Assembly: GCA_963736645.1 (NCBI GenBank)
Contig: CAVTPJ010000004.1
Location: 154,663 to 218,662, forward strand
Length of the DNA stretch: 64,000 nt
Source: an uncultured Thermoleophilia bacterium
GTDB lineage: Bacteria > Actinomycetota > Thermoleophilia > UBA2241
Direction of reading: 5' to 3'
Shown: piece by piece, positions 31,707-41,510 of the stretch
Layout: every line of letters begins with the position of its first letter
Position numbering within the stretch: the stretch's first letter is position 1
Position numbers and translations under genes: made by a program
The notes under the pieces: model-generated
What the model was told of the DNA's origin: nothing
Database searches by the model: none
Seen by the model: only the letters and a program-made list of their open reading frames with translations

Positions 31707-31772
31707 CCACGAGCAGGGGCACAGACGGCGCAGCCGCATTCCGGCGCGCTCACACTGCGAAGGGGGAACGTC

Positions 31773-32507
31773 ATGGCACTCACGAACAGGTACGCGGCCG
31801 CCGCACTGCTCGCGGCTCTCGCGCTGGCGCTCGTTGCGCTCGCCGGCTGCGGGGAGACCGCCACCACCACGGCAGGCGGCACCGCCGCCGTCAACACCGT
31901 GACCGCATCCGGCGCCGGCACCGCCCAGGCCGTGCCGGACACGGCCGAGATGTCCTTCGGCGTCACCACGACGTCGTCCAACGCCAAGACGGCACTGGAC
32001 GACGCCTCCAAGGTCGCCGAGCAGATCGCCTCCGCGGTCAAGAAGCAGGGCATCGCCGACGAGGACATCCAGACGCAGGACGTCAGCGTCTACCCGCAGA
32101 CCGTCGACCAGGACGGCAAGCAGGTCATCACCGGCTACCAGGCGTCGCTGAGCGTGCGCGTCAAGGTGCGCGACATCGCCAAGCTCGGCGAGGTCATCTC
32201 GGCCGCGAACGCCGCCGGCGCCAACAGCATCAGCGGCCCCACGTTCACCATCGACGACCCGGCGCCCGCCCGCGCCGAGGCGATCGACGAGGCCGTGGCC
32301 GACGCCCGCAAGAGCGCCGAGGCGATGGCCGAGGCCGCCGGCAAGAGCGTCGGAGAGGTGCTGAGCATGAGCTCGAGCGACGTGGGCATGGTCGCCGAAG
32401 CGATGTACGGCCAGGCCGACATGGCCGGGGCGGCCAGGGACGTGCCCATCGAGCCGGGTCAGCTCGACATCACCGCGAACGTGGTCGTGGTCTTCGAGCT
32501 CAAGTAG
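31773..32507 (+). CDS. SIMPL domain (DUF541/YggE) lipoprotein
   Basis: Lipobox LAGC; VPDTAEMSFGV, DIQT, GAN.ISGPTF, PIEPG. Confidence 0.9.
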   Translation: MALTNRYAAAALLAALALALVALAGCGETATTTAGGTAAVNTVTASGAGTAQAVPDTAEMSFGVTTTSSNAKTALDDASKVAEQIASAVKKQGIADEDIQTQDVSVYPQTVDQDGKQVITGYQASLSVRVKVRDIAKLGEVISAANAAGANSISGPTFTIDDPAPARAEAIDEAVADARKSAEAMAEAAGKSVGEVLSMSSSDVGMVAEAMYGQADMAGAARDVPIEPGQLDITANVVVVFELK

Positions 32508-32523: not shown

Positions 32524-34005
32524 TCACCCGGGACTGCTCTGGACGCCTGCAGCCCGGTCCGCGCGAGTGAGGATGGCGTCGAGCTCGGCGGAGACGTCGG
32601 ACGGCAGGTCGCAGTCGTCATCCTCGGCGAGCAACGCCAGCGCTTCGTCGCGCGCGCGCCGCGCCAGGTCCACTCTCCCCGCGGCGTCCCACGCCTCGTA
32701 TACCCCGCGGTCGAAGAGCCGGGGGGCCGACATGGCTCTCATGCCGAGCAGTGTGCTTTCGCGGGACATGAATTCCCCGGACCAGCCGACGTCCTGGATG
32801 TCCCCGAGCAGCAGCGTGTCCTCTTCGACAGGGATCCCCTCCAGGACGTGGCGGATCATGCGCGCGATCTCGTCGTCCACGACCAGCTGACCCAGATCGA
32901 ACGTGACGCCCGACTCGACCATGCCCGCTCCGTAGATCTGGTTGGCGCCTGCCAACGCAGTCATCACTCCGGTGAGCGTCTTCTCGTGACCGGCCTGGGC
33001 GTCACACGTCTTGGAATCCGACTACAACCCGGCGACGAGGCTGGGCAGGTTGTATCGGCGCGCCAGTTGCGCGACACCGGCGTTGAGCATGGAGCACTCG
33101 GGCGACCCGACGGGGCACGTACCGACCCGCAGGTCCATGCCGGTGCTCGAGCTCGAAGCGCGGAACGGCGACCCTCGCTCCACCGACTGGACGAGGACGA
33201 GGGTCGCCAGGACCTCCACGTTGTGGGTCACCAGCGCGCCGGCCAGCGTGACCGGCGCCGAGGCGCCGGCCATGACCATGGAGCAGGCGCCGAACGGGAT
33301 GCCGTTCCGCGCCGCCGTGATGGCGACCTCGGTCAGCTCGCGAGGCAGCCGCAGTGGGCTGACAGGGCAGCCACCGAACTCGATGATCGGGCGCTCGCGA
33401 AGACGGTCTCGCCCGCCGACGATGGTCGCGGCCATGTCGATGCTCGCCTCGCACTCGAACGCGTTGGTCGCGCCCGCGACGATGTGCTTGCTCGTGCCGC
33501 GGAAGGCGGCGCGCAAGCCGTGCAGGGAGGCGGTGGGCCCGGGGGCGTCGGACGCGGTCACGGCGACCATGTAGGAGTCGATCGTCCCGAGGCGGTCGGA
33601 CAGGCGCGCGGTGTCCTCCACATCCTGCGTGGTCGCCGGCCGGCGCTCCCCGCTGCGCGCGTCGATCATGAAGAGGCCCTCGCAGAAGTTGGTGAACGTC
33701 ACCCGGTCGCCGCCGAGGAGCACGTCGCGGCCGGGGTCCCGGCCGCACTGGAGCCACTCGGCGGGCGCCGAGCCGATCGCCGCATCCACGACGCCGGGCG
33801 CGATGCGGACGGACCGCGCGTCCCTGTCCACCGCGCACCCGGCGTCCGCGAACACGTCGAGGGCCTCGCGGTCCTCGACCCAGACCCCGGTCTCCTCCAG
33901 TACCTTCAGCGTCGCCTCGTGGAGGTCGTCCAGGTCCCGCTCGCTCAGCACGCTGAGGCGGACCTGAGCGCTGCCGGTCCGCCTGCCGTCACGCACGTCG
34001 TCCAT
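32524..34005 (-). CDS. mttB: Trimethylamine:corrinoid methyltransferase, pyrrolysine-containing (in-frame TAG 33022-24, codon 328)
   Basis: ATG 34005 with GAGGAG RBS; reads YNLPSLVAGL*SDSKTCDAQAGHEKTLTG...ALAGANQIYGAGM in one frame; 493 aa with readthrough; TGA stop. Confidence 0.92.
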
Positions 34006-34016
34006 CCCCGCTCCTC

Positions 34017-35413
34017 TCAGATCCTCGCGTTGGTGCGGAACCGGCTCGACGCAGTTCACGGGGATGCCCAGCACCTCGGCGATGCGGAACTTCGCCTCCA
34101 TCGCGCTCGGCTGCTCGGGGTAGAGCGCCGCTCCCCCGTAGCAGATGCGTCCGAGCCCCAGCTCGCCTCTCACCTCGTGCATCGTCGGAGCGTCCGACAG
34201 GTCCGACGGGCTGACGCCCAGCTTGCCGGCCACGTAGCGCTTCGCTTCAGGGAGCCTCATGCCCCGGGTCATCTGCATGCGAGCCACCAGATCTCCGGCG
34301 GCTCGCATCCCGCCCATGCCCGCGGCGTTGGCGTGCGTCGCGCTCATCCCGAGCGGATCGCCGGCGCCCACCTACAAGCCGTCCACCTTCAGGATGTCGA
34401 CGCAGGCCCGGGCGGCGCGCGAGACCGCGTCGACCGGCGCCCGGACGGCCATCGGCACGCCGCCCACGCCCATCCCGACGTTCATGTGGACGGGAATCTG
34501 CGACTCCTCGCAGCACGGCTTGCACAGCGTCAGCGTGCGGGCCAGGTTCCAGGGCAGCGACTTCGTCGAGTTGACGTTGACGGCGGGCCCGAACACGGTG
34601 GCGCCCGCCGCGGCGGCCAGCTTGACCTGCTGGTGCGGCCAGAGGCCGGCGAGCCGCACGCCCTGCCACTCCAGCTCGCCGTGCATGCCGAGGACCATCT
34701 CGCTCGCCATGCCCATCTCGATGCCCATGTCCGGGCAGCGGTCGCGGATCGCGCGGGTGGCGTTGAGCGCGGCCAGCAGGTCTGCGTCGCCGGCCGCGCC
34801 CGACGTGTCCAGGTCGATCGCCGTCGGCTCCCGCCTCCCACACGCCCTCGGCCACGAAGGCGATGTCGTGCGCGGCCATCTCCGCGGCCTCTTCCTGCGC
34901 GGCGCGCGCCTCGGCGATGCGCCCCAGGGGCAGCAGCTCCGACCAGTTCGCGACCGGGCCGTCCGGCCGGGAGTACCGCCCCAGGTCCGGCATGGCGCCG
35001 TACTGCACCGGCACCGTGAGCGCCTGCTGCGCGTTCTTGAGCGTCTGTCGCTCGAACGGCAGGACGGTCTTCACCGCCTTGAACGAGTAGTCCATGTGGT
35101 ACAGCTCGACGATGTCGGCGCCCAGGTACTGCTCGAACGCCAGCAGGTCGCCCTGACGGCCGGCGACGAGCTGGCCGCCGGTGCCGTCGATGCTGAGCAC
35201 CACCTCCGACCCCAGGTCGACGCTGCTGAACCTGGCCCGTGAGGCGCAGATGTCGAGCAGGTGCTCCGCCTCATCGTCGGTCAGCGCCGGGACGTGAGAG
35301 CGCTTCACCGCCGCGCCGACGCCGGCCTCGATGTCCGCCCGCATCTCGCTCCGGGTCTGCATGAGGAGCGACCCGTCTCCGAGCCGTGTCGGGATCCGCT
35401 CTTCCGTCGTCAT
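34017..35413 (-). CDS. mtbB: Dimethylamine:corrinoid methyltransferase, pyrrolysine-containing (in-frame TAG 34372-74; two +1 indels)
   Basis: IPTRLGDG, DYSFKAVK, YGAMPDLG, DTSGAAGDAD, HMNVGMGVGGVPM and KVDGL*VGAGDPLGM...GMGGMRAAGDLVARMQ; about 464 aa after correction. Confidence 0.9.
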
Positions 35414-35429
35414 GTGACGCCTCCTCCGC

Positions 35430-36906
35430 TCAGCCGCGGCGGGCGCGGTCCAGGGCGCGCGCCACGACGTCGTCGACCGCCGCCTGGACGCTCGCCGGCA
35501 GCGGCTCCGGCCGGTGGGTCGCCAGCAGCTCGTCCACGCGCTCGGCGGCCATCGCCGTGGCGTCCTTGCCGCCGCGCCCGCTGCCAGTCCTCGTAGGTGC
35601 TGCGGTCGAAGATGGCGGGCTGGAACCTGTCGCGCGCGTGCACGCGCGTGTGCTTGTGCTTCAGGAACAGCCCGCCGGGCCCGACCTCGTCGATCACGTC
35701 GAGCCCGAGCGCCTCGTCGCTCAGGTCCACCGGCGCGACGAACGCCTTGATCCACCCGACGATGTCGTCGCCGAGGACCACCTGCGTGAGCGAGCCGGTG
35801 AACGCGGACTCGATGAAGCCGATGTTGTGGTTGATGTGCCCGCCGATGACGGCGTCGGCCATGAGGGTGAGGGCCGTCTCGGCCGCCGCCTGCTGGTCGG
35901 GCAGCTTGCTGTCGGTCACGCCGCCGAGCGTCCACAGCGGCAGCCCGTACCAGTGCAGCAGCGACGAGTAGACGCCGCGGTGGTCCGGCCAGGCGAAGAC
36001 GTCGACCATGGTGCGCATGTCCATGGCCTCGCCGGCCCAGCCGATGGCGATGTACGGAGCGCCCTCGCGCTTGAGCTGGGCCATCACGAGGCCCGCAAGC
36101 ACGCCAGCGTTGACGACCACCGTCGAGCCGGCGACGGTCATCGGCGCTACGGTGCCGGCCGTGGAGACGGGGCTGTAGATGCACGGCAGGCCCTTGCCTG
36201 CGAGGTCGAGGAGCGTCCGGACGGCCTCGCGGTTGTGCACGAGCGGGAACAGCGTGTTCTTGTAGCAGGCCACGAACGGCCGCTCGCGCAGCTGTCGCTC
36301 GCCGCCGGCCACGGCCTCGGCCATGGCGACCGCGTCGCCGTTGGCGGTCTCGTCACCCATCGTGATGTACACGATGGGCTTGGTGGTGTTGGCGAGCATC
36401 GTCGCCATCTGGTAGCGGTCGGCGATGCTCGCCTCGACGTCGCTCGGCGTGAACAGCGACATCGCGAAGTCGATGTTGTCGCACGCGTCCGTCACCGTGG
36501 TCGCCTCGACGCAGTCCTGCAGTACGGCCCGGCGACGCTCGCGCGTGCGGTGGTCGTAGCAGTACATGCAGTCGCTGCCGGTGCCGTAGTAGGTCCGGCG
36601 GCCGGACAGCACGAGGCGCGGCTCGCCGTGTCTGTCGTACAGGGTCACCTCGCGCGGCGCGCTCGCGAGCGCGCGCTCCACCATCTCCGCGCCGATGCGT
36701 ACGCGCGTGCCGTCCACCTCGGCGCCGGCGGCCGCCAGGAGCTTCAGCGCCTCCGGCTCGTCGACGATGAGGCCGGTCCTCTCGAGGACCTGCAACGTCG
36801 CCTCGTGCAGCCGCTCGCACTGCGCGCCTGTCAGACGGGTGAAGAAGCTCCCGATGCCCAGTCCCTGGGCCTTGTCTGTGTGATCGGTCGTCGCGGCTTG
36901 GCGCAT
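35430..36906 (-). CDS. Non-pyrrolysine MttB-superfamily methyltransferase (C-terminal frameshift ~35580)
   Basis: LHEATLQVLERTG, GTVAPMTVAG, LGGVTDSKLPDQQAAAE (Val at the Pyl position), EVGPGGLFL..HT. Confidence 0.88.
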
Positions 36907-40684: not shown

Positions 40685-41510
40685 TCGCCGCGAACCTCTG
40701 TCTGCGCACGAGCGTCCTACGGGCAGGGGCACGGACGGCGCAGCCGCTTGCGGCGCGCTCACACTTCAAAGGGGGAACGTCATGGCACTCAGGACCAGGT
40801 ACGCCACCGCCGCACTGCTCGCGGCTCTCTCGCTGGCGCTCGTCGCGCTCGCCGGCTGCGGGCGACACCACCAACGTCACGGCGGCCGCCGCCGCCAACA
40901 CCGTGACCGCCTCCGGCGCCGGCACCGCTCAGGCCGTGCCGGACACGGCCGAGATGTCCTTCGGCGTCACCACGACGTCGCCCAACGCCAAGTCGGCTCT
41001 CGACGAGGCCTCCAAGGGCGCCGAGCAGATCGCCTCCGCGGTCAAGAAGCAGGGCATCGCCGACGAGGACATCCAGACGCAGGACGTCAGCGTCTACCCG
41101 CAGACCGCCGACCAGGACGGCAAGCAGGTCATCACCGGCTACCAGGCGTCGCTCAGCGTGCGGGTCAAGGTGCGCGACATCGCCAAGCTCGGCGAGGTCA
41201 TCTCGGCCGCCAACGCCGCCGGCGCCAACAACATCAGCGGCCCCACGTTCACCATCGACGATCCGGCGCCCGCCCGCGCCGAGGCGATCGACGAGGCCGT
41301 GGCCGACGCCCGCAAGAGCGCCGAGGCGATGGCCGAGGCCGCCGGCAAGAGCGTCGGAGACGTGCTGAGCATGAGCTCGAGCGACGCGGGCGCGGTCCCC
41401 ATGGCCTACGGCACGGCCGACGCGGCCGGGGCGGCCAAGTCGGTGCCCATCGAGCCGGGTCAGCTCGACATCACCGCGAACGTGGTCGTGGTCTTCGAGC
41501 TCAAGTAGCT
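40685..41510 (+). repeat. Direct repeat copy B (ECF-type promoter, leader and SIMPL gene)
   Basis: Highly similar to 31675..32509; GAAC-N17-CGTC at 40692-40716. Confidence 0.92.
40782..41508 (+). CDS. SIMPL domain lipoprotein, second copy (frameshift ~40862)
   Basis: Protein nearly identical to 31773..32507. Confidence 0.88.

What the first reader, a model, noticed from the sequence alone, without database searches (positions are those of the whole stretch)
32524..36906. Pyrrolysine-encoding methylamine methyltransferase operon (non-Pyl MttB, mtbB-Pyl, mttB-Pyl) in a very high-GC bacterium
Seen: two adjacent genes each carry one in-frame TAG with homology continuing in the same frame (KVDGL*VGAGDPLGM at 34372-74; VAGL*SDSKTCDAQAGHEKT at 33022-24). 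The ORF track splits both genes there. All three cluster genes end in TGA once the indels are corrected. Established: Methanosarcina MtbB and MttB have UAG-encoded pyrrolysine in these contexts (DGIOIGVGDP; AGSOSDAK..D.QAGHEKT). Bacterial Pyl is best known from Firmicutes and Deltaproteobacteria. Inference: this organism uses an expanded genetic code to demethylate TMA and DMA. If it is an actinobacterium, as the neighbouring genes suggest, that would be an unusual host. Two TAGs at the catalytic position are very unlikely to be sequencing errors.
Basis: partly seen in the sequence, partly recalled or inferred. Interest (0 to 1): 0.93.

Follow-up and report, generated by a model that had tools for sequence, protein, structure and literature searches.

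The report
Pyrrolysine methylamine methyltransferase operon, actinobacterium
This is a genuine three-gene methylamine methyltransferase operon in which two genes use the stop codon TAG to encode the rare amino acid pyrrolysine, in a high-GC soil or sediment actinobacterium whose whole family carries the trait.

Summary
Observation confirmed. On the minus strand, 36906 to 32524, lie a TAG-free MttB-superfamily gene, mtbB with an in-frame TAG (34372-74) and mttB with an in-frame TAG (33022-24). The mttB TAG aligns with the pyrrolysine residue of the solved Methanosarcina barkeri MttB. The mtbB TAG shares one alignment column with the TAG of all 10 MtbB paralogs in this genome.

Another contig carries pylB, pylC, pylD, a tRNA-Pyl (CUA), pylSn and pylSc, all above NCBIfam cut-offs. 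Close relatives are labelled Thermoleophilia (Actinomycetota). PylSc is over cut-off in 80 of 89 species genomes of the same family.

The operon has three single-base insertions that break the first gene and mtbB. An orthologous operon in a same-genus genome is intact, and metagenome contigs lack the extra bases. Frameshift calls cluster over the last 100 kb of this contig in unrelated genes. I read them as assembly errors (about 80%).

TAG still ends about 18% of genes and RF1 is present, so decoding is ambiguous, as in other Pyl bacteria.

Pyl-encoding mttB and mtbB in Actinobacteriota bins are already in print (2022, 2023). This is a new member of a known kind. The 10 deeply diverged Pyl-MtbB paralogs per genome are the most interesting lead.

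The parts
35430..36906 (-). First gene: MttB-superfamily methyltransferase without pyrrolysine. At the Pyl position it reads GGVTDSK. Its substrate is unknown. As assembled, its frame is broken near the C-terminus.
   Evidence: PF06253 MTTB scores 245.8 bits. TIGR02369 scores 312.6 bits, below the 525 cut-off; the intact ortholog scores 362.1. The ATG is at 36906 and the true stop TGA at 35432-35430 in the shifted frame.
35577..35586 (-). One extra base in the first gene (+1 frameshift). The reading ...STYEDWQRA continues in the next frame as GGKDATAMAAERVDELL...
   Evidence: The DNA alignment to the orthologous operon L080 puts a 1-base gap at window position 35583. Metagenome contigs lack one base at 35577 (X3 1 contig, X5 1) or at 35583 (X2 2, X3 2). 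My frame model calls a shift at 35586.
34017..35413 (-). mtbB, a dimethylamine:corrinoid methyltransferase homolog with one in-frame TAG. As assembled it is broken by two single-base insertions, and its open frame runs on into mttB.
   Evidence: TIGR02368 scores 107.8 bits (N-terminal piece) and 296.1 bits (C-terminal piece). The intact ortholog in L080 scores 424.1, above the 369.1 cut-off. PF09505 matches are split at C4:189482/189483. GGAGGAG lies at 35427-35421 and the ATG at 35413. The true stop TGA is at 34019-34017.
34372..34374 (-). In-frame TAG of mtbB, the predicted pyrrolysine codon, in the context VDGL-O-VGAGDP.
   Evidence: It shares an alignment column with the TAG of all 10 paralogs. 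Close homologs of 344-346 aa end exactly there.
34819..34821 (-). One extra G in mtbB (+1 frameshift). Relatives read GADAIDLDTSG or GADGIDLDTSG across this point.
   Evidence: The alignment to L080 has a 1-base gap at 34819. Contigs lack one base at 34821 in X2 (2 contigs), X3 (5) and X5 (1).
34043..34044 (-). One extra C near the end of mtbB (+1 frameshift). The expected C-terminus is ...VNCVE-RFRTNARI-stop.
   Evidence: The ortholog ends ...VNCVERFRTHARI. The alignment to L080 has a 1-base gap at 34044. Contigs lack one base at 34043 in X1 (1 contig) and X3 (3).
32524..34005 (-). mttB, a trimethylamine:corrinoid methyltransferase with one in-frame TAG. It is intact and ends in TGA.
   Evidence: TIGR02369 scores 584.3 bits, above the 525 cut-off. 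The match to M. barkeri MttB 7xcl_A has E 4.9e-91 over residues 4-474. GAGGAG lies at 34016-34011 and the ATG at 34005.
33022..33024 (-). In-frame TAG of mttB, the predicted pyrrolysine codon, in the context VAGL-O-SDSKTCDAQAGHEKT.
   Evidence: It aligns with the X (pyrrolysine) in YVAGSXSDAKVPDDQAGHEKT of 7xcl_A. Five other MttB genes of the genome carry a TAG in the same motif. Loose-end consensus sequences of diverged environmental homologs keep CTA at this codon (table 7).

Best explanation
The window holds a real operon of three corrinoid-dependent methyltransferase genes from a Thermoleophilia-class actinobacterium. The genes are a TAG-free MttB-superfamily member of unknown substrate, mtbB and mttB. 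In mtbB and mttB a UAG codon is read as pyrrolysine. That reading uses a dedicated tRNA(CUA) charged by a split PylSn/PylSc synthetase. Pyrrolysine itself is made from lysine by PylB, PylC and PylD. All of these are encoded on another contig of the same genome. The Pyl enzymes would pass methyl groups from trimethylamine and dimethylamine to corrinoid proteins, which RACo/RamA-type activases keep reduced. The methyl groups would then go to a pterin carrier and into a Wood-Ljungdahl-type pathway. UAG is not reassigned genome-wide: it stays a common stop codon and RF1 is present, so decoding is ambiguous, as in other Pyl bacteria. The three frameshifts in the operon are most likely consensus errors of a poorly resolved stretch of this assembly, not biology.

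Shown: the gene content, the TAG positions, the pyl genes and the lineage-wide distribution. Inferred: the substrates, the methyl sink, actual Pyl insertion, and that the indels are artefacts.
For: Pyl machinery in the own genome (C8, locus L007):
- PylSc 326-327 bits (cut-off 178).
- PylB 448 bits (cut-off 348).
- PylC 329 bits (cut-off 248).
- PylD 206 bits (cut-off 150).
- PylSn 126.8 bits (cut-off 51).
- ARAGORN tRNA-Pyl with anticodon CUA at L007:9751-9823.
- The tRNA folds with one base between the acceptor and D stems, a 5-nt D loop, a long anticodon stem and a 2-nt variable region.

TAG positions:
- The mttB TAG aligns with the Pyl residue of 7xcl_A.
- All 10 of 10 MtbB paralogs have their TAG in one alignment column.
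- Six MttB genes carry a TAG in the AG[LA]-O-xDSK motif.

Family scores: mttB 584.3 bits (cut-off 525); the mtbB ortholog 424.1 bits (cut-off 369.1).

Lineage:
- PylSc is over cut-off in 80 of 89 genomes of the family.
- MtbB is found in 86 of 89.
- All Actinomycetota-labelled PylSc rows form one clade, SH-aLRT 94.

Indels read as artefacts:
- The orthologous operon in G030 (L080, 91.9% DNA identity) has three intact genes that end in TGA, with TAGs at the same codons and no frameshift.
- Metagenome contigs lack the extra bases.
- My frame model.1 shifts per 10 kb of coding sequence genome-wide. It on contig C4, 55 of them in C4:150-250 kb, and 31 in this window.
- The shifts split Pfam domains of unrelated genes. 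For example, Radical_SAM positions 2-51 and 80-164 lie on either side of window 3038.

Ambiguous decoding: a crude count of stops gives TGA 2096, TAG 492 (18.5%) and TAA 77. RF1 scores 484.8 bits (cut-off 423).

Downstream parts in the genome: 11 matches to corrinoid-protein models (about 10 genes, two over cut-off), 2 RACo, pterin-binding proteins and CdhC/acetyl-CoA synthase.
Against: - No raw reads of the source sample were available. The best holder among public runs had 0.25 of the sampled words. The TAGs and the indels are therefore checked only against relatives and an ortholog.
- Three insertions within 1.6 kb is dense even for this contig.
- The other nine MtbB paralogs are unbroken, so real decay of a redundant copy cannot be excluded.
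- No RNA or protein evidence exists for this genome.
- No solved or named MtbB with an annotated Pyl was available to align. The MtbB column rests on the family model, on paralogs and on truncated homologs.
- The genome is a bin, 85% complete with 3.9% contamination.
- My frameshift model is home-made. It has a background of 0.73 calls per 10 kb on control loci.
- It missed one of the three operon shifts, the one at 34043.
Confidence: 0.85

Rival explanations
1. The organism does use pyrrolysine, but this copy of the operon is a decaying pseudogene. On this reading the three frameshifts are real mutations in a redundant paralog set.
For: There are three +1 insertions within 1.6 kb. Nine other MtbB genes and five other Pyl-MttB genes are unbroken and could cover the function. 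Genome-wide frameshift calls are near the background rate, 1.1 against 0.73 per 10 kb.
Against: - The shifts are part of a 100-kb stretch with 55 calls that hit unrelated genes.
- Similar clusters sit at other contig ends.
- There is no other sign of decay. The genes have no in-frame TGA or TAA. The pieces are 92-94% identical in protein to the intact ortholog.
- mttB still scores 584 bits.
Confidence: 0.11
2. The TAGs are ordinary stop codons, so the genes are truncated or split and no pyrrolysine is inserted.
For: TAG is a common stop in this genome, about 18% of gene ends, and RF1 is present. No expression or peptide data exist.
Against: - The genome has a complete pylTSnScBCD set.
- The TAG sits at the catalytic Pyl column.
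- The same column holds a TAG in 10 of 10 paralogs that are only 43-67% identical to each other, and in all 150 listed family matches.
- Conserved sequence continues in frame after the TAG, with no start signal.
Confidence: 0.02
3. Binning artefact: the pyl cluster and the methyltransferase genes come from different organisms.
For: The genome is a bin with 3.9% estimated contamination. The pyl cluster is on a different contig from the window.
Against: Contig C8 carries both the pyl cluster and a Pyl-type mttB/mtbB pair at C8:449482-453222. G+C is about 70% throughout. Eighty of 89 related genomes also carry PylSc.
Confidence: 0.02

Closest known systems
Methanosarcina barkeri MttB (PDB 7XCL; Li et al. 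2023, PMC9842639, seen in a search listing only) and the MttB/MttC system
   Same: It belongs to the same family, scoring over the cut-off of the TIGR02369 equivalog model. The Pyl codon sits in the same AG-x-O-SD-x-K...QAGHEKT motif.
   Different: The host is bacterial. No corrinoid protein gene lies next to the operon in the window. The methyl acceptor is presumably a pterin and a Wood-Ljungdahl pathway rather than coenzyme M (inference).
Bacterial Pyl systems of Bacillota and Deltaproteobacteria, such as Acetohalobium, Desulfitobacterium and Bilophila (names recalled; distribution from Guo et al. 2022, PMC9630628, passages read)
   Same: pylSn and pylSc are split, pylBCD is clustered with pylT, and TAG is retained as a normal stop codon.
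   Different: The host is an actinobacterium with 70% G+C. Its PylSc is only 52-59% identical to those of Dehalococcoidales, Bacillota and Deltaproteobacteria and forms its own clade. It has far more Pyl genes per genome: 10 MtbB plus 6 MttB.
Actinobacteriota bins from Stordalen Mire reported to express Pyl-encoding mttB and mtbB (Ellenbogen et al. 2023, PMC10805028, passages read)
   Same: The phylum, the two Pyl gene types and the wetland or soil setting all match. The paper names genus RBG-16-64-13. That this genus is a Thermoleophilia lineage is my recollection, not a call.
   Different: I could not establish whether this genome belongs to that genus. In the passages read, the paper identified Pyl genes by truncation. 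Those passages did not describe the pyl machinery, the paralog radiation or the family-wide distribution. The supplements could not be seen.
Archaeal Genetic Code 34, in which all TAG codons are pyrrolysine (Kivenson et al., bioRxiv 10.1101/2024.09.30.615893, passages read)
   Same: It uses the same Pyl machinery.
   Different: Here TAG ends about 18% of genes and RF1 is present. In none of the 10 other read-through candidates tested did a Pfam match over its gathering score span the TAG; one weak MFS_1 match below threshold did. There is no genome-wide reassignment.

Membership tests
Pyl-dependent trimethylamine methyltransferase MttB (TIGR02369) | Score over the curated equivalog cut-off | tested here: met
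   584.3 bits against a cut-off of 525, over residues 16-483
Pyl-dependent trimethylamine methyltransferase MttB (TIGR02369) | In-frame UAG at the pyrrolysine position of the characterised enzyme | tested here: met
   The TAG aligns with X in YVAGSXSDAKVPDDQAGHEKT of 7xcl_A
Pyl-dependent trimethylamine methyltransferase MttB (TIGR02369) | Methyl transfer from trimethylamine to a cognate corrinoid protein | not testable with these tools
   Corrinoid proteins are present in the genome, but none lies next to the operon in the window
Pyl-dependent dimethylamine methyltransferase MtbB (TIGR02368 / PF09505) | Score over the curated equivalog cut-off | tested here: inconclusive
   The window gene is split. 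Its pieces score 296.1 and 107.8 bits, each below 369.1. The intact ortholog in L080 scores 424.1
Pyl-dependent dimethylamine methyltransferase MtbB (TIGR02368 / PF09505) | Single in-frame UAG at the conserved column | tested here: met
   All 10 paralogs share the column. Homologs of 344-346 aa end there. All 150 listed family matches hold one TAG. No experimentally characterised MtbB sequence was available to align
Pyl-dependent dimethylamine methyltransferase MtbB (TIGR02368 / PF09505) | One unbroken reading frame | tested here: not met
   The assembly has two single-base insertions, at 34819-21 and 34043-44. I judge them probable assembly errors
Bacterial-type pyrrolysine insertion system | tRNA-Pyl with a CUA anticodon | tested here: met
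   ARAGORN finds it at L007:9751-9823.
Bacterial-type pyrrolysine insertion system | PylRS as separate pylSn and pylSc genes | tested here: met
   PylSc scores 327 bits (cut-off 178). PylSn scores 126.8 bits (cut-off 51) in a 113-aa open frame
Bacterial-type pyrrolysine insertion system | pylB, pylC and pylD biosynthesis genes | tested here: met
   They score 448, 329 and 206 bits, all over their cut-offs, and lie next to one another
Bacterial-type pyrrolysine insertion system | Pyrrolysine actually inserted at UAG | not testable with these tools
   No RNA holder was listed and no proteome is available
Genome-wide TAG-to-Pyl reassignment (Code 34 type) | TAG no longer used as a stop, and many TAGs inside conserved genes | tested here: not met
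   TAG accounts for 492 of 2665 counted stops. RF1 is present. In 0 of 10 extra candidates does a Pfam match over its gathering score span the TAG; one MFS_1 match (28.8 bits, gathering score 33.4) runs across it
Non-Pyl MttB superfamily (first gene of the operon) | PF06253 match without a TAG at the Pyl position, and below the TMA-specific cut-off | tested here: met
   PF06253 scores 245.8 bits. The Pyl position reads GGVTDSK. TIGR02369 scores 312.6 bits, below 525

The most novel reading that the evidence does not exclude
This Thermoleophilia family may hold the largest bacterial sets of pyrrolysine proteins known. This genome has about 16 Pyl genes, including 10 MtbB paralogs that are only 43-67% identical to each other and all keep the Pyl codon. 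The family has 618 MtbB matches in 89 genomes, from 0 to 14 per genome. Such an old, retained radiation suggests that many of these 'dimethylamine' methyltransferases act on other, still unknown amine substrates. It also suggests that high-GC soil and wetland actinobacteria are major anaerobic consumers of methylated amines, which are methane precursors.
Probability: 0.35. Interest if true: 0.7.

Novelty: new member of a known kind. Interest (0 to 1): 0.45.

Why it matters
The finding confirms natural genetic-code expansion in a high-GC actinobacterial lineage. It also shows that the trait is family-wide rather than a one-off transfer.

These bacteria would compete with methylotrophic methanogens for trimethylamine and dimethylamine in soils, wetlands and sediments.

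There is a practical consequence. Standard gene callers truncate every one of these genes at the TAG: most database homologs are fragments of 344-346 aa. Their abundance and diversity are therefore under-counted.

The split PylSn/PylSc pair and tRNA from a 70% G+C host, and the diverged MtbB paralogs, are candidate material for enzymology and for genetic-code-expansion tools.

Tried and rejected
- Source reads. The look-up of sequencing runs listed no run holding more than 0.25 of the sampled words, and no RNA holder was listed. Raw-read support for the TAGs and the indels in the source sample could not be tested. Contigs of four runs (X1, X2, X3, X5) were laid instead.
- More Pyl proteins. 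My frame model read through 63 TAGs. Sixteen of these are the MtbB and MttB genes. Of the other 47, most show a start codon just after the TAG. I picked 14 unclear ones by eye, fetched them and scanned 10 with Pfam. In none does a match over its gathering score span the TAG. One weak MFS_1 match (28.8 bits, below its 33.4 gathering score) runs across it. Four (L101-L104) were fetched but not scanned. I rejected additional Pyl proteins for lack of support.
- Programmed +1 frameshifting. Rejected, because the three sites are absent from the ortholog and from environmental contigs.
- Genome-wide TAG reassignment. Rejected.
- Literature. Searches were pyrrolysine+Thermoleophilia (one irrelevant paper), pyrrolysine+Actinobacteria+pylS+distribution, pyrrolysine+GTDB+pylB, pyrrolysine+Actinomycetota, Thermoleophilia+Wood-Ljungdahl+methyltransferase+trimethylamine, mtbB/mttB/Actinobacteria/pyrrolysine and RBG-16-64-13+Thermoleophilia. 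None returned a paper describing the pyl machinery or the MtbB radiation of Thermoleophilia. Supplements are closed and might hold such data.


Full report
**What is in the window.** The window has about 70% G+C throughout. On the minus strand between 36906 and 32524, three frames read with TAG=O (coordinates) give three genes.

- The first gene starts at ATG 36906. It is an MttB-superfamily protein that reads GGVTDSK where Pyl enzymes have the TAG.
- mtbB starts at ATG 35413 and has a TAG at 34374-34372 (KVDGL-O-VGAGDPLGM).
- mttB starts at ATG 34005 and has a TAG at 33024-33022 (VAGL-O-SDSKTCDAQAGHEKT). It ends in TGA at 32526-32524.

The plain ORF list is split at both TAGs.

**Frameshifts.** As assembled, the first gene changes frame near 35580. 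mtbB changes frame near 34820 and again near 34043, so its open frame runs straight on into mttB. The local sequence shows what the undisturbed genes look like:

- ...RARRG-TGA (35432-35430), then GGAGGAG, then the mtbB ATG.
- ...RFRTNARI-TGA (34019-34017), then GAGGAG, then the mttB ATG.

Several lines of evidence place and explain the three shifts.

- Close database homologs (P0002, 98% identical over the part the search aligned, and P0004) read GADAIDLDTSG straight through the 34820 site.
- A same-genus genome, G030, holds the orthologous operon (L080, 91.9% DNA identity over 4448 aligned bases). It has three unbroken genes of 500, 466 and 494 codons that all end in TGA, with TAGs at the same two codons and no frameshift call.
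- The DNA alignment shows that the window has exactly one extra base at about 35583, 34819 and 34044. It also has a 2-base intergenic difference and some noise at the 3' end.
- Logan contigs of four metagenome runs, laid at 85% likeness or more, lack one base at three places:
  - 34043: X1 1 contig, X3 3.
  - 34821: X2 2, X3 5, X5 1.
  - 35577 or 35583: X3 1 and X5 1, or X2 2 and X3 2.

**Are the shifts real?** I trained a codon-score Viterbi model on 960 long ORFs of the genome. It allows frame changes at a penalty.

| Sequence set | Frameshift calls | Coding sequence | Calls per 10 kb |
|---|---|---|---|
| 17 relatives' loci with NODE or k141-type contig names | 8 | 110 kb | 0.73 |
| 31 relatives' loci with contig_N-type names | 83 | 328 kb | 2.53 |
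| Own genome | 311 | 2.82 Mb | 1.1 |
| Contig C4 | 65 | about 211 kb | 3.09 |

- On contig C4, 55 of the 65 calls fall in C4:150-250 kb, which holds the window. The window alone has 31 calls.
- Other clusters lie at C2:0-20 kb (15 calls), C9:60-80 kb (18 calls) and several contig ends.
- Pfam confirms that the calls split domains in unrelated genes. Radical_SAM positions 2-51 and 80-164 lie on either side of window 3038. The domains of a xanthine-dehydrogenase-type gene are spread over several pieces.
- The other nine MtbB genes are unbroken.
- The model called two of the three operon shifts (34831, 35586). It missed the one at 34043, because there the wrong frame runs open into mttB.

I therefore read the three insertions as local consensus errors, at about 80%. 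True decay of this one copy remains possible.

**Are the TAGs at the Pyl column?**

- mttB matches the solved M. barkeri MttB (7xcl_A, E 4.9e-91). The X in YVAGSXSDAKVPDDQAGHEKT aligns with the window's TAG. The related entry 7xcm has K at that position.
- mttB passes the NCBIfam equivalog cut-off, 584.3 against 525.
- For mtbB, most database homologs are 344-346 aa and cover 55-56% of the query. In the three fetched (P0002, P0004, P0007) the sequence ends in ...KVDGL, exactly at the TAG.
- The genome holds 10 MtbB genes. All have one TAG in the motif DG[LY]-O-[VI]GxGD, in the same alignment column, although they are only 43-67% identical to each other.
- Six MttB genes have the TAG in AG[LA]-O-xDSK...Q.GHEKT. 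Two of the six, C5:4996 and C12:3450, look like one region assembled twice.
- The first gene scores 312.6 bits on the TMA model (its ortholog 362.1), below the 525 cut-off. It is a non-Pyl superfamily member of unknown substrate.

**Pyl machinery.** Contig C8 (L007) carries, in order, pylB (448 bits), pylC (329), pylD (206), tRNA-Pyl(CUA), pylSn (126.8), a corrinoid protein (226.6) and, on the other strand, pylSc (326). All are over their curated cut-offs. The tRNA folds into a cloverleaf with one base between the acceptor and D stems, a 5-nt D loop, a long anticodon stem and a very short variable region. I recall these as tRNA-Pyl hallmarks. C8 also carries a Pyl mttB/mtbB pair, which argues against a binning artefact.

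**How TAG is used.**

- Among model segments of 60 codons or more, the stops are TGA 2096 (78.6%), TAG 492 (18.5%) and TAA 77 (2.9%); 280 ends were not at a stop.
- RF1 is present, at 484.8 bits against a cut-off of 423.
- Of the 47 other TAGs that the model read through, I chose 14 and scanned 10. In none does a Pfam match over its gathering score span the TAG. One weak MFS_1 match, below threshold, runs across it.

TAG therefore remains a stop codon, and Pyl insertion appears limited to the methyltransferases, as in other Pyl bacteria.

**Pathway context (inferred).** The window itself has no corrinoid or activase gene next to the operon. Its neighbours are SIMPL/DUF541, DUF4268 and RsgA. 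Elsewhere the genome has:

- 11 matches to the Pyl-type corrinoid model, about 10 genes, two of them over cut-off.
- Two RACo/RamA-type activases.
- Pterin-binding proteins.
- A CdhC/acetyl-CoA synthase at C9:190717, near a RACo and a pterin-binding gene.
- About 44 MttB-superfamily genes in all.
- One MtmB-like gene without a TAG.

This fits an anaerobic methylotroph that feeds methyl groups into a Wood-Ljungdahl-type pathway.

**Who is it, and how widespread is the trait?**

- PylSc relatives at 66-90% identity in named records are almost all labelled Thermoleophilia, Actinomycetes or Actinomycetota bins. The next group, at 52-59%, is Dehalococcoidales, Bacillota and Deltaproteobacteria.
- I built a quick PylSc tree from 56 of the 63 loci plus the own genome. 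I left out L051, L052, L059, L069, L076, L077 and L078, whose matches were partial, split or weak. All Actinomycetota-labelled rows fall in one clade (SH-aLRT 94). Two rows with other labels, L029 and L047, sit inside it.
- In the same family, PylSc is over cut-off in 80 of 89 species genomes and matched in all 11 genera.
- In a sample of 401 genomes of the class it matched in 83: family f1 73 of 79, f4 9 of 61, and the ten other families 0 of 260.
- MtbB is in 86 of 89 family genomes, from 0 to 14 per genome, with 618 matches in all. All 150 listed matches carry one TAG.
- Two small same-genus genomes, G023 and G024 (1.7-1.8 Mb, 98% complete), lack both PylSc and MtbB.

**Comparison with the literature.**

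- Guo et al. 2022 (PMC9630628, passages read) count 81 bacterial PylRS genomes. Most are Firmicutes, 14 are Deltaproteobacteria, two are Actinobacteria and one is a spirochaete.
- Ellenbogen et al. [quoted passage not shown]
- The preprint on archaeal Code 34 (10.1101/2024.09.30.615893, passages read) says that in bacteria Pyl is reported only in a few methyltransferases and one serine dehydratase, with TAG otherwise a stop.
- My searches found no paper describing the pyl gene set, the family-wide distribution or the MtbB radiation in Thermoleophilia. Supplements were closed.

**Verdict.** The kind of system is known and has already been noted in this phylum, so this is a new member of a known kind. 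The frameshifts are most likely assembly errors. The most interesting lead is the old, lineage-wide radiation of Pyl-MtbB paralogs.

Noticed in passing
G000:C4:150000-250000 (includes the whole window); also C2:0-20000 and C9:60000-80000: Frameshift calls of my frame model are strongly clustered. On C4, 55 of 65 calls fall in its last 100 kb. There are 15 in C2:0-20 kb and 18 in C9:60-80 kb, against 1.1 per 10 kb genome-wide. These look like stretches of poor consensus in the assembly. Gene calls there will be fragmented.
   Followed up: partly
G000:C6:27900-46700 and G000:C5:1500-22600: These are methylamine islands. C6 holds five Pyl-MtbB genes, three MttB-family genes (one with a TAG) and a corrinoid protein within 19 kb. 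The start of C5 holds about nine MttB-family genes, one MtbB, a corrinoid protein and a RACo activase.
   Followed up: partly
G000:C2:411531-412892: An MtmB-family (PF05369) match of 225 bits covers model positions 1-450 with no internal stop. It appears to be a non-Pyl monomethylamine-methyltransferase homolog. It lies beside a corrinoid protein (C2:412963) and an MttB-family gene (C2:413717).
   Followed up: no
G000:C12 (24.7 kb) versus the start of G000:C5: C12 seems to repeat the first part of C5 in inverted order. A Pyl-MttB match scores 309.8 bits in both. Neighbouring MttB and corrinoid matches are near-equal too. This is either one region assembled twice or a strain variant.
   Followed up: no
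G000:C9:184000-191200: CdhC/acetyl-CoA synthase (217.9 bits), a RACo activase (331.4 bits) and a pterin-binding protein (68.9 bits) lie close together. This hints at a Wood-Ljungdahl carbonyl branch in an actinobacterium.
   Followed up: partly
Genomes G023 and G024 (same genus): Two near-complete (98%) genomes of only 1.7-1.8 Mb, in 1-2 contigs, lack both PylSc and MtbB. Their relatives of 2.4-4.5 Mb have both. This may be loss of the trait together with genome reduction.
   Followed up: no
Proteins P0003, P0006 and P0008: Some full-length MtbB homologs in the protein collection carry W or Q at the Pyl column. These could be real non-Pyl variants or translations made under another code.
   Followed up: no
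window 40858-41505 (+) and 31767-32504 (+): Two SIMPL/DUF541 genes (185.7 and 182.7 bits) flank the region on either side of the operon and its neighbours.
   Followed up: no
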